Source: Ruditapes philippinarum
Taxonomy: Eukaryota
Length of the DNA stretch: 64,000 nucleotides
Direction: 5' to 3'
Assembly (NCBI RefSeq): GCF_026571515.1
Contig: NW_026854124.1
Span: forward strand, 372,001 to 436,000
The first letter of the stretch is position 1. Every line of letters starts with the position of its first letter. Below, in pieces: positions 60,632 to 64,000 of the stretch. The translations under genes and the position numbers were made by a program. The notes beneath the pieces were generated by a model, which was given only the letters and a program-made list of their open reading frames with translations, was not told the origin of the DNA and searched no databases.

Positions 60632-60690
60632 TTTATGGGGTCATGTATATAAGACCCAGCGTGTAATTGCAAAAGCATACGACACTATTC
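60632..60690 (+). promoter_or_regulatory. Candidate TATA promoter for the miR-10 host transcript
   Basis: TTTATGG (Cdx/Hox-type) at 60632, TATATAAG at 60646-60653, and a strong donor AAG|GTAAGA ~180 nt downstream. Confidence 0.4.
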
Positions 60691-63242
60691 TAACAGCAAA
60701 TGCTGATTAGAACAGAAAATTAAATTAAAACCAAATTAGAATGCAGTGTCATGTGACAATAATTGGACAAATCGCCGAGTACCCGAAACTCTCCATACCA
60801 GAAAGATGTACGAGGAAGGAGGCGTTTTCAAGGTAAGAAATTTCTAATTTTGTTTCCTTATAATTTGTATTTAATAACTTTTCATATGGCGAAATTCCGA
60901 CACGCAATGATAATGACGAATTCTGATGATTTAAATTTTTAAGTTTCCGGTTTCTGTGTGATGTTTACTTATTGATCATTTTTACGTCATGAGTTCTGTT
61001 TGAATATACATGTATGCGTACGTAACAGCGTGTAAATACTAAAATAGTTTGATTCTAAGCGAAATTATTTCAAATATCGAACTCAGGTCATTAAATTATT
61101 CCTTTCTTACAGTTTTAAATGAATTCGCGCCATTTTAAAATGTTGTCGTATTCACGTTAATGATTCATGAAAAAAGGAACGAAATAAATATTTGTTTACA
61201 TATCATTTACATTTTATATGACGTAAGCGTCGAGTATTCTAATAAATGGATGCATCCGGGACTTTAAAGCACCTAATTTATAAAATGATCATGGCAGATG
61301 CGCGGGTATTTTGGAAATCTTTGTATGAGTCTGAAAAACAAAAATGAGGTATCTACCTCAAACAGCTGTTTACGTCCTCTCCGCCAATAGAAATGTTTCA
61401 AAGTTTAGACTAAATTTGTCAAAACTCGTTAATCATATGCTTTTTGTCACTTTTCATATGTTTCATGTGGAAACATTAGCCACGCAAAATTGAACGGAAA
61501 GTTAAAATTACATTCGTTGATTGGTAAACGTCAGTGTACCGTGGTAAGTGTGTTTAGTTTTCCTTTTTACCATCGATTTAGATTTATTATAAATAGAAGG
61601 TGTTGACAGGATTCATGTTATGGTAGACTGAACTCTATTCTTTGTTTACATATGTTGTTTGTTTACAGATTTCCCCACTATGCTCGTCTTTATATTTGAA
61701 GTAATAATGTACATGTATGTATATTCATGTATATAGTTATAGACGAGCTTCTTCTCTCTTTTTTAAAGCGTTTAAATTAACCTTTTATTTTGTGTTCTTT
61801 TTTTCAGGTAATTAATGTCTTTATATAGTTTCCTGTCTAAACCAACAGAGATTTTAAAACATCGCTATTTAGATTTGTGTCTGTAAATATTACATGTAAT
61901 GGGCGTATTTTAGTTAATGACCTTTTTATTAAGAGACGATTTTCTTATATTTATGTTTATAATTATTTCAAGTAAACATTACACATGTTTCCTAAATTAT
62001 CATTTGTACATGTACTGATTTTGACACGTTCTCTATTTGGTATGTTATTATATTGTTCCGTTCATTCCTGTATACTAATTGAATAGACTAGAAACCATCC
62101 CTGTAGATGCTAACTTACTTCATTTCGTTCTATAATGTTTTATCAGAGAGAAACGCTCGGAAGTTTAAAGACATTTCGCCAAAAGGTAATTGGAACACGT
62201 ATTTAAAAAAATTTCATTCAATATCTTTATCTTTCATACAATCTGGCTGAAATCAAATTTTGACAAATTGTTAAAAGATACCGGAAACACGATAAAGACC
62301 GAACTGCAGGTTATCGCCGGCTTACTTTCTAAGACTTTGTTATTTCATTAAGAACATTAGCACGTGAACGCTGAGATAAACATTTTGCAGTATTATATTC
62401 AATCTGTATACATGCTGATGTAACTGGTGTAATGTTTTCTGTCCCATACATTTATATGAACAGTGACACCGGATAAATATCCCATTTCATATCATCACTG
62501 TTTCTATGGAAACGGATACTGTTCATCATAATCCTTGCATGTTTTGTAGTTTTAAACTTTATATCCACGGCGAGGAAAAAGCGCACAAAATGTAAAACGT
62601 ACACTTGCAAGTAGTAAAATATTCGGTAATTCATTAGTTTCAGTCATTTTGCACGCAAATATTATCTGCCGTCTGCAACCCTAGCAACATTGCCGCAGAC
62701 GAACGCTCTATTGTTACGCTGACCTCTTTCAAACTGACAGTCGTGATGTATGTTTCACAAATGCTCAAAAACTTCCTCTGCAATGTAAAATATCAGCTAT
62801 CTACGCCACACATCTTTTTCATAAATAAAGTATCTTGAAATGGGATATACACCGTATTGTTTGCACCTTGTGTGGATAATGTAGAGTGAATATCTTCAAA
62901 ACAAGCCAAACTTTTTCAAAAGTATTTATTCCCCGATGCGTGACTTTGACAGGATTTTTTGAATTTTAAATGTGATACTACTGTTACATTGATGAATTAA
63001 CATAAAACACACGTTTGCTAGTCACTGAAACAGGAAAAGGAGATCAACTCGATTTGAAATACCTTACTTCGATACTTACACTGCGTCTATAGTACGCCGC
63101 CATCTTTAAAAATGGCTGCCTCCAGGGATATATGGACGAGAGAGAGGCTGAGTGACACTGATGGAAAATCTGAACATTGGAAATAAACATTGGTCGCGTG
63201 TTTCTATTTTTGGATACAGTTTGGATACTTAGAGGATCGGTG

Positions 63243-63316
63243 ACCGGCACATACCCTGTAGATCCGAATTTGTGTAATATCATGCTACAAATTCGGTTTT
63301 GCGGGATTTCTGCGGC
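63243..63316 (+). ncRNA. mir-10: miR-10 precursor hairpin (5p 63252-63274, 3p ~63288-63309)
   Basis: TACCCTGTAGATCCGAATTTGTG is the canonical miR-10-5p. The downstream ACAAATTCGGTTTTGCGGGA forms the stem and carries the known 3p start CAAAUUCGG. Lower stem ccggca/tgcgg. Expected position between Hox5 and Hox4. Confidence 0.98.
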
Positions 63317-64000
63317 ACTAAATTCGTCAAGTTTCATGAAAATTATGGATGTACGTTCCTGGGAAATTCAAGACAGGTGAGTGTTTAAACTATATTGTTT
63401 TTTCTTGTTATTTTTTTTCTTGTTTTCTCGGGAGTATAAACTTGCATTTTGTGTCATCTATTATGACTTTAAAAGTGTATACATAGCTTCTTTATATTAA
63501 AGTGTCAAAATTACTAAGTCATAATTTATTTGTAAAAAGGGCCTACTTCTGTTTCCTATTTCATTTTACCAAAGAAATTAAGATTTTATGGACCGATTAA
63601 CGAAGGTAAGTGATAGACGTATCTTGTAAACCGAGAAATTTTATAATGTACGTGTTCTTCATATAAATTCCCTATTTTATAACTAATTAACAAGGGTTTT
63701 ACGAGCACTCGCATCTAGTTAATTAAATTTATGATGTAGCCAGGGGACGTCATAAATTTGATACGGAGTTGATATAATATTAAAATGGTTATAAACCATT
63801 AAACCATCAAATTTTATAACTATCTATAAAGGGCGATCAGTTTCGTTCCACACTTAGCATAAATAACGCGATACGAAGGTCGGCTATGGGTGTAATAAAA
63901 GCCAATTTAAAAACGACAGGAAATTTATGCGACTTGAACTGATCCTTTGAAAATCTAAATGTACATCTATGCTTAAATTTATCTCAATTTATAAGACTAC

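What the first reader, a model, noticed from the sequence alone, without database searches (positions are those of the whole stretch)
60646..63611. Multi-exon non-coding host transcript for miR-10 outlined by alternating splice sites
Seen in order on +: TATATAAG 60646; donor AAG|GTAAGA 60833; acceptor ttcctttcttacAG 61112; donor GTG|GTAAGT 61544; acceptor ttgtttgtttacAG 61668; donor CAG|GTAATT 61808; possible acceptor ttttgcAG 62390; miR-10; donor CAG|GTGAGT 63377; pyrimidine-rich acceptor ...ccaaAG 63574; donor AAG|GTAAGT 63606. The first junction gives only a 10-codon ORF (MYEEGGVFKF*). Inference: an undescribed spliced pri-miR-10 with the hairpin exonic, continuing toward Dfd. If it splices into Dfd, Drosha cleavage would compete with Hox4 mRNA production.
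Basis: inference. Interest (0 to 1): 0.7.

Follow-up and report, generated by a model that had tools for sequence, protein, structure and literature searches.

The report
Spliced miR-10 host RNA, likely mollusc
In the Hox cluster of a likely mollusc, the miR-10 hairpin lies in a likely transcribed stretch that one likely-RNA data set shows joined, likely by splicing, just after the hairpin at a splice signal also present in two likely related animals, while the predicted chain of upstream exons and a link to Hox4 were not seen.

Summary
All motifs are at the stated coordinates, and donors are denser than background (5 against a mean of 0.93 per 2,966 nt). The locus is miR-10 between Hox5 and Hox4 of a lophotrochozoan, likely mollusc, Hox cluster.

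Contigs from six likely-RNA runs (six studies) cover the stretch. None shows any of the four predicted junctions, and several predicted sites are crossed unspliced. Contigs start 109-475 nt upstream of the TATA box.

Two metagenome miR-10 loci that share flanking elements with the window also carry three features: the element ending at the TATA position, a paired YY1/Pho-type motif, and a strong donor 125-175 nt from the miRNA start. The upstream donors are not shared.

Best model: a pri-miR-10 with its own promoter, a long hairpin-bearing first exon, one ~0.62-kb intron and a likely terminal exon. Hox4 lies 52 kb away; a join to it was not seen but not directly tested. Spliced pri-miR-10 (fly) and Drosha-cut miR-10/Hox4 transcripts (mouse) are published. 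Modest novelty.

The parts
59131..59214 (.). Conserved non-coding element, likely an enhancer, 4.1 kb upstream of miR-10
   Evidence: blastn to L035: 84 nt, 85.7%, E 3.6e-21, at -4532 from its miR-10
60171..60537 (.). Zone where likely-RNA contigs begin (60171, 60411, 60516, 60537, 60537); start site not resolved
   Evidence: Runs X7, X1, X11, X9, X13; contigs cannot show a true start or a strand
60621..60653 (+).
   Evidence: Present in the window, L035 (-3020) and L054 (-2171) and in none of the other 31 metagenome loci (many too short to reach that far); TATATAAG kept in L035, not in L054; search pattern defined after the fact
60833..61813 (+). Three donor-like motifs (60833, 61544, 61808) and acceptor-like motifs (61112, 61668): at most minor splice sites
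   Evidence: No junction in 6 contig runs; 60833, 61544 and 61668 crossed unspliced; L035 has no donor scoring 4 or more between its TATA and hairpin
62764..63012 (.). Two short conserved blocks (62764-62801, weak; 62956-63012) inside the inferred first exon
   Evidence: blastn to L035, E 0.043 and 2.9e-4, in the same order
63097..63123 (.). Inverted pair of YY1/Pho-type motifs (GCCAT-N-T on each strand) about 150 nt upstream of miR-10-5p
   Evidence: Window -153, L035 -167, L054 -179; single occurrence on the scanned strand of 264 kb; variation falls at the degenerate position; motif as described in PMC4091789; binding untested
63245..63316 (+). pre-miR-10 hairpin (5p arm starts 63252, 3p arm about 63288)
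   Evidence: Rfam RF00104, E 1.8e-7; -34.9 kcal/mol, z -4.54
63377..63994 (+). Skipped stretch, likely an intron: strong donor CAG|GTGAGT to an acceptor at 63994/63995
   Evidence: X9 contig joins 63376 to 63995 (90 nt + 384 nt, depth 4.73; ends GT..AA against the reference, 1 nt off an AG); DNA-type run X15 is contiguous across both ends; strong donor at +175 in L035 and +163 in L054
63575..63611 (+).
   Evidence: Skipped by the X9 join; crossed unspliced by X1 record 6
63995..64000 (+). Start of the downstream, likely terminal, exon; runs past the window end to at least position 64378 (G000:C2611:436378); AATAAA at 64318 and 64595
   Evidence: X9 record 19; no donor scoring 4 or more up to 65000; single copy in G000

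Best explanation
This is the miR-10 hairpin between Hox5 and Hox4 inside what is likely its own non-coding primary transcript, with a likely long, mostly unspliced first exon that ends 60 nt after the hairpin at a donor (63377) that one likely-RNA contig shows joined to a likely terminal exon at 63995. Transcription likely starts around 60.2-60.7 kb at or upstream of the conserved TATA-region element, runs about 2.7-3.2 kb through the paired YY1/Pho-type motif and the hairpin, is spliced at the donor, and is likely polyadenylated within about 0.6 kb or reads on at low level. Microprocessor would crop the exonic hairpin to release miR-10. The donor's kept position and strength in two other loci suggest selection on U1 binding next to the hairpin (inferred, by analogy with plant exonic miRNAs). 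SHOWN: motifs, hairpin, Hox neighbours, one join, unspliced crossings, shared elements. INFERRED: start site, strand of the unspliced contigs, poly(A) site, role of U1 and YY1.
For: Join at exactly the strongest donor of 264 kb, 90 nt matched without mismatch on the short side. The joined contig still carries the 3p arm from 63287, so that arm is exonic in a joined RNA. The join is not explained by the shared AAGAC word at the two ends, since it keeps the exon's terminal AG. No such deletion in DNA-type run X15; both sides are single-copy in G000. All six contig runs cover blocks between about 60.5 and 63.1 kb and have no or next to no depth at about 59.84-60.17 kb, where X15 has 7-16x. A donor scoring 5.5 or more at +60..+400 is found in the window, L035 and L054 but in only 1 of 19 other lineages, and in 0 of 22 on the antisense strand. 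The chance of a donor of 7.5 or more in 200 nt is 0.0047 per locus. L035 and L054 were picked by blastn hits outside the donor. L035 has no donor between its TATA and hairpin. No ORF of 50 codons or more in the model (longest 49), and post-hairpin ATG frames are not similar across the three loci.
Against: The join is in 1 of 6 contig runs (1 study, depth 4.73). Its 3' end reads GT..AA against the reference, so it needs a 1-nt allelic difference (not seen; variant tables were cut) or a non-canonical acceptor. The runs are only guessed to be RNA and were chosen for holding this stretch, so the contrast with the silent upstream stretch is a weak hint. Contigs drop rare forms and give no strand. 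No single contig spans 60.5-63.4 kb, and cover is thin at 61.0-62.1 kb in four runs, so an upstream intron cannot be excluded. X1 record 1 ends at 60830, 2 nt before the first predicted exon end. L054 has an acceptor/donor pair at -1778/-1600. Contigs start upstream of the TATA box. Cover continues at 65.5-68.5 kb in X1, X5 and X9, so the unit may be longer. The splice-site matrix was recalled, not trained.
Confidence: 0.62

Rival explanations
1. One reading: the upstream donors are used in some tissues or stages, but bulk contigs show mainly nascent RNA because Drosha crops the transcript before splicing is complete.
For: All five donors score in or near the range of real Hox donors here (4.5-7.5); 3 upstream donors against about 0.8 expected, P about 0.05; thin cover at 61.0-62.1 kb in X7, X9, X11, X13; X1 record 1 stops 2 nt short of donor 60833; L054 has a possible internal exon.
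Against: 0 of 4 junctions in 6 runs; sites crossed unspliced in 1-4 studies each, including small runs with little cover elsewhere; no equivalent donors in L035; the thin zone is also the most polymorphic in X15, which breaks low-depth contigs.
Confidence: 0.15
2. A shared miR-10/Hox4 (or Hox3) transcription unit as in vertebrates: the conserved donor can also splice about 52 kb downstream into Hox4, so cropping and Hox4 mRNA production would compete.
For: Published for mouse Hoxd4/Hoxb4 (PMC3185001) and zebrafish HoxB4a/HoxB3a (PMC2148072); same strand and order; low cover continues to 68.5 kb; acceptor-like sites 257 and 1,287 nt upstream of the Hox4 ATG (scores 5.8, 6.8).
Against: The one observed join lands 0.6 kb away in an exon with AATAAA and no donor; no loose end at either donor (cover there was low, 13 rows hidden) or among the rows shown (257 hidden by a repeat); Hox4 has its own E-box about 120 nt upstream of the ATG (promoter role recalled); fly pri-miR-10 ends about 700 nt after the hairpin (PMC3290615); in mouse the gap is about 1 kb, not 52 kb.
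Confidence: 0.1
3. Two promoters: a proximal start at the YY1-type pair near 63.1 kb makes a short two-exon pri-miR-10, and the upstream cover is a separate enhancer or antisense RNA.
For: YY1-type motifs are enriched near active start sites (PMC4091789); the pair is kept at -153 to -179 in three loci; contigs of X7, X9 and X13 end at 62996-63085, just before it.
Confidence: 0.1
4. The cover is DNA carry-over and the join is an assembly or reverse-transcription artefact; the motifs are chance.
For: Run type is guessed; single contig; 3' end 1 nt off an AG.
Against: Breakpoint exactly at the best donor in 264 kb; donor kept in two other loci; no cover of the upstream stretch that the DNA-type run covers.
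Confidence: 0.03

Closest known systems
Drosophila pri-mir-10 (Lemons et al. 2012, PMC3290615; passages read)
   Same: Independent, spliced, polyadenylated non-coding transcript between Scr/Hox5 and Dfd/Hox4 with its own promoter; ends about 700 nt after the hairpin and does not reach Dfd.
   Different: The fly has one ~5.5-kb intron in a 7.5-kb unit starting ~6.8 kb upstream of the hairpin (so the intron is upstream and the hairpin in the last exon, my inference from those lengths), and INR/DPE/MTE elements. Here the seen join is downstream of the hairpin, the hairpin is in the inferred first exon, and the element is TATA-like.
Mouse Hoxd4 P2/pri-miR-10b and Hoxb4/pri-miR-10a (Phua et al. 2011, PMC3185001; abstract and Introduction read)
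   Different: The hairpin is intronic (intron 4) and about 1 kb from the Hox4 coding region; here it is exonic and 52 kb away, with no join to Hox4 seen.
Zebrafish miR-10c on HoxB4a and HoxB3a splv2 primary transcripts (Woltering and Durston 2008, PMC2148072; passages read)
   Same: miR-10 carried by long Hox-cluster transcripts starting 3' of Hox5.
   Different: These include Hox coding sequence; none is shown here.
Plant MIR genes with the hairpin in exon 1 followed by an active 5' splice site (Knop et al., PMC5389571; abstract read)
   Same: Geometry: exonic hairpin with a strong donor shortly downstream, which in plants raises miRNA yield through U1-microprocessor contacts.
   Different: Plant machinery (SERRATE); no effect of the donor on miR-10 yield was tested here.

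Membership tests
mir-10 precursor (Rfam RF00104; Hox-linked Mir-10) | Covariance-model match, + strand best | tested here: inconclusive
   E 1.8e-7 over the full model, but 40 bits is below the gathering score of 47.5
mir-10 precursor (Rfam RF00104; Hox-linked Mir-10) | Stable hairpin with the miR-10 5p arm | tested here: met
   z -4.54; 5p arm matches the family consensus and 33 other loci exactly over 24 nt
mir-10 precursor (Rfam RF00104; Hox-linked Mir-10) | Position between Hox5 and Hox4 on the same strand | tested here: met
   Homeobox at window 20187(+), Hox4-type start at contig 487551(+); paralogue names assigned from recalled diagnostic residues
mir-10 precursor (Rfam RF00104; Hox-linked Mir-10) | Mature ~22-nt products in small-RNA reads | not testable with these tools
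   No small-RNA run was offered
Independent spliced pri-miRNA (fly pri-mir-10 type) | Transcribed stretch containing the hairpin | tested here: met
   Cover in 6 of 6 likely-RNA contig runs; RNA status guessed by the tool, runs chosen for holding the stretch
Independent spliced pri-miRNA (fly pri-mir-10 type) | At least one spliced intron | tested here: met
   Join 63376-63995 in 1 of 6 runs, donor exact, acceptor 1 nt off in the reference
Independent spliced pri-miRNA (fly pri-mir-10 type) | Own capped start and own poly(A) end | not testable with these tools
   Contigs give no ends; raw run X23 had next to no depth
Independent spliced pri-miRNA (fly pri-mir-10 type) | No conserved protein-coding frame | tested here: met
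   0 of 4 in 6 contig runs; contigs cannot exclude rare forms
Vertebrate-type miR-10/Hox4 shared transcript | miR-10-region exon joined to Hox4 exons | tested here: inconclusive
Plant-type 5' splice site-stimulated exonic miRNA (works-like) | Active donor shortly downstream of an exonic hairpin | tested here: met
Plant-type 5' splice site-stimulated exonic miRNA (works-like) | Donor mutation lowers mature miRNA | not testable with these tools
   Needs a reporter assay

The most novel reading that the evidence does not exclude
Molluscs keep a compact miR-10 cassette (TATA-region element, paired YY1/Pho sites, hairpin, very strong donor 125-175 nt from the miRNA start) because U1 bound at that donor controls Microprocessor cropping, an animal counterpart of the plant exon-1 rule; the same donor may also serve as a switchable long-range splice into Hox4 or Hox3.
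Probability: 0.2. Interest if true: 0.65.

Novelty: new member of a known kind. Interest (0 to 1): 0.37.

Why it matters
I found no description of a lophotrochozoan pri-miR-10 structure in the open library. This locus gives a third arrangement beside fly (hairpin in the last exon, inferred) and mouse (intronic, shared with Hox4). It also names three short conserved elements that can be mutated singly. If the donor controls miR-10 yield, it would be a natural animal case of U1-Microprocessor coupling at an ancient Hox microRNA. Otherwise it is a useful but ordinary annotation of a known microRNA's host transcript.

Tried and rejected
(1) Rfam at gathering score over the whole window: 0 hits; miR-10 appears only by E-value. 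The PCA3_2 hit (E 0.033, 20.4 bits against 100) was rejected as chance.
(2) The look-up of sequencing runs: no RNA holder listed on record; 8 of 24 listed runs were laid. Raw RNA run X23 (6 in 100 of the run read) gave depth under 0.5 outside a repeat: uninformative on strand, starts or junctions.
(4) The other 11 joints lie in repeats (10 of them, at L022 960-1090, 6420-6490 and around 8380-9110) or have 21-25-nt sides and no GT..AG ends; rejected as repeat matches.
(6) A micropeptide from the ATG after the hairpin: no similarity, and mixed phases across three loci.
(7) The YY1-type pair as an RNA stem: possible, but substitutions fall at the motif's degenerate base and break pairing in the window.
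(8) U1 protection from early polyadenylation as the reason for the upstream donors (concept recalled): L035 has three AATAAA and no donor in that interval, so it is not a conserved need.
(9) miR-10-5p seed sites: none in the window after the Hox5 stop; the 5 seed matches in 264 kb all lie 4 kb or more from the hairpin and none is close behind the Hox4 stop.
(10) A post-hairpin donor as a general bilaterian rule: only 1 of 19 other lineages (L056 dropped, 28 nt downstream; one representative per cluster of near-identical loci).
(11) Three look-ups in earlier scan findings returned nothing. Paper search returned 0.
(12) Supplements of the papers were not opened; GenBank or RefSeq non-coding annotation for molluscs is not searchable here and may already hold such a transcript.
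Full report
SETTING. The window is G000:C2611:372001-436000 (+) of a 1.41-Gb genome. Nine homeoboxes lie on + along the contig. Their translations read as Lox2, Lox4, Antp, Lox5, Hox5 (window 20187), Hox4 (start MSSFLMN at contig 487551; homeobox split by an intron), Hox3, Hox2 and Hox1. The names rest on recalled diagnostic residues. This is a lophotrochozoan cluster, likely a mollusc and probably a bivalve (ACATGT-rich DNA, a recalled trait). miR-10 lies 43 kb downstream of the Hox5 homeobox and 52 kb upstream of the Hox4 ATG.

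OBSERVATION. All motifs are at the stated coordinates. The hairpin is at 63245-63316 (Rfam E 1.8e-7, below gathering score) and folds at z -4.54. With a generic, recalled splice matrix, five donors in 2,966 nt compare with a mean of 0.93; 0.006 of 178 windows reach five, and 63377 is the top-scoring donor in 264 kb. Without the two donors downstream of the hairpin the excess is marginal (P 0.035-0.05). Acceptors are not enriched, but the score does not separate real Hox acceptors from background either.

RNA EVIDENCE. Of 24 listed runs I laid 8: six likely-RNA contig sets from six studies (X1, X5, X9, X7, X11, X13), one raw RNA run (X23, no useful depth) and one DNA-type run (X15). None of the four predicted junctions appears. 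Contigs cross donor 60833 unspliced in X5 (60695-61013), X7 (60758-60976), X11 (60516-60925) and X13 (60537-60901); donor 61544 in X1 and X5; acceptor 61668 in X13; acceptor 62390 in X1, X5 and X11; and 63574/63606 in X1. Acceptor 61112 and donor 61808 are not bridged by any contig shown (959 and 43 pieces were hidden).

The one splice-like join is in X9: 63287-63376 (90 nt, no mismatch) joined to 63995-64378 (384 nt, 6 differences), depth 4.73, skipping 618 nt. The 3' break reads ..AA, one base short of the reference AAG, so it needs a one-base allelic difference (not visible in the cut tables) or a non-canonical acceptor. X15 is contiguous across both ends, and the flanks are single-copy. 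Because the joined contig keeps the 3p arm, that arm is exonic in a joined RNA.

Contigs begin at 60171, 60411, 60516, 60537 and 60537, which is 109-475 nt upstream of the TATA box. The six runs have no or next to no depth at about 59.84-60.17 kb, where X15 has 7-16x. The runs were selected for holding the stretch and give no strand, so this is a weak hint. Results against my reading: cover is thin at 61.0-62.1 kb in four runs, X1 record 1 ends 2 nt before the first predicted exon end, X1 also holds the 63377-63994 stretch unspliced, and low cover continues to 68.5 kb.

COMPARATIVE EVIDENCE. A scan of metagenome contigs with the 24-nt 5p motif gave 33 miR-10 loci in 22 clusters. Two, L035 and L054, share flanking sequence with the window by blastn; I treat them as likely molluscs. 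All three loci carry (i) TGTAATC..TTTAT(G/A)G..CATGTATA at -2630, -3020 and -2171, with TATATAAG kept in L035 but not L054; (ii) an inverted pair of GCCAT-N-T motifs at -153, -167 and -179, the YY1/Pho motif as described in PMC4091789; and (iii) a donor scoring 7.9-9.1 at +125, +175 and +163. Patterns (i) and (ii) were defined from these three loci. The donor was not used to pick them, and the chance of such a donor in 200 nt is 0.0047 per locus. Among 19 other lineages 1 has a donor of 5.5 or more in +60..+400, and 0 of 22 do on the antisense strand. The upstream donors are not shared: L035 has none over 3 kb, and L054 has an unrelated acceptor/donor pair.

MECHANISM. The most likely reading (0.62) is an independent pri-miR-10: start at or upstream of the conserved element, a 2.7-3.2-kb first exon carrying the hairpin near its 3' end, a ~0.62-kb intron from the conserved donor, and a terminal exon with AATAAA at 64318 and 64595 and no donor up to 65000. 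It has no ORF of 50 codons. Microprocessor would crop the exonic hairpin. A selected role for U1 at the donor is inferred from conservation and from the plant precedent (PMC5389571). Rivals: the upstream exons as a minor or stage-specific isoform (0.15), a vertebrate-type link to Hox4 (0.10), a second promoter at the YY1-type pair (0.10), artefact (0.03).

KNOWN WORK. Fly pri-mir-10 is a spliced, polyadenylated 7.5-kb unit with one intron and its own promoter (PMC3290615, passages). Mouse miR-10b lies in an intron of the Hoxd4 P2 transcript, and Drosha cleavage yields uncapped Hoxd4 RNA (PMC3185001, abstract and Introduction). Zebrafish miR-10c shares primary transcripts with HoxB4a and HoxB3a (PMC2148072, passages). 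Passages of PMC4138081, PMC12257675 and PMC3394115 gave nothing on lophotrochozoan pri-miR-10 structure; searches found no such description, but they cover only an open-access library, and supplements were not read. PMC5389571 was seen as abstract and outline, PMC4091789 as passages.

VERDICT. Observation partly confirmed; interpretation partly supported. New member of a known kind, interest 0.37. The part worth following is the donor just after the hairpin and its two companion elements, not the multi-exon chain.

Noticed in passing
window 59131-59214: 84-nt element 86% identical in L035 at a similar distance from miR-10; likely a Hox5/miR-10 enhancer.
   Followed up: partly
G000:C2611:500714-501626 (L008): The Hox4 homeobox is split by an intron of about 0.7 kb after 'EFHFNR', and the Hox3 homeobox breaks after 'WFQ'.
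   Followed up: no
L022:6430-6540 (contig 436930-437040): Short, extremely abundant repeat (summed contig depth in the thousands, both strands in raw RNA reads) about 1.6 kb after the hairpin.
   Followed up: no
window 64202 equivalent (contig 436202): Strong acceptor 950 nt after the miRNA start; L054 and L035 have acceptors at +998 and +1430. It could be the alternative partner of donor 63377.
   Followed up: partly
window 60516: An X11 contig starts with 23 unmatched, self-complementary letters; adapter, template switch or allele not resolved.
   Followed up: no
window 53500-54600: About 1 kb of GAT/GAC/GGT trinucleotide-rich repeat giving long open frames on both strands; L054 has a similar repeat 3.3 kb upstream of its hairpin.
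   Followed up: no
L030-L062 (e.g. L042, L051, L057, L061): Many of the other, likely annelid, miR-10 loci share TCACGTGAT about 20 nt after the hairpin, some followed by GCCATCTT at +100.
   Followed up: no
window 63325-63328: CGTC about 16 nt after the 3p arm fits the CNNC processing motif (motif recalled).
   Followed up: no
window 43932-44462 (-): 177-codon stop-free frame in the Hox5-miR-10 interval, possibly a transposon fragment.
   Followed up: no
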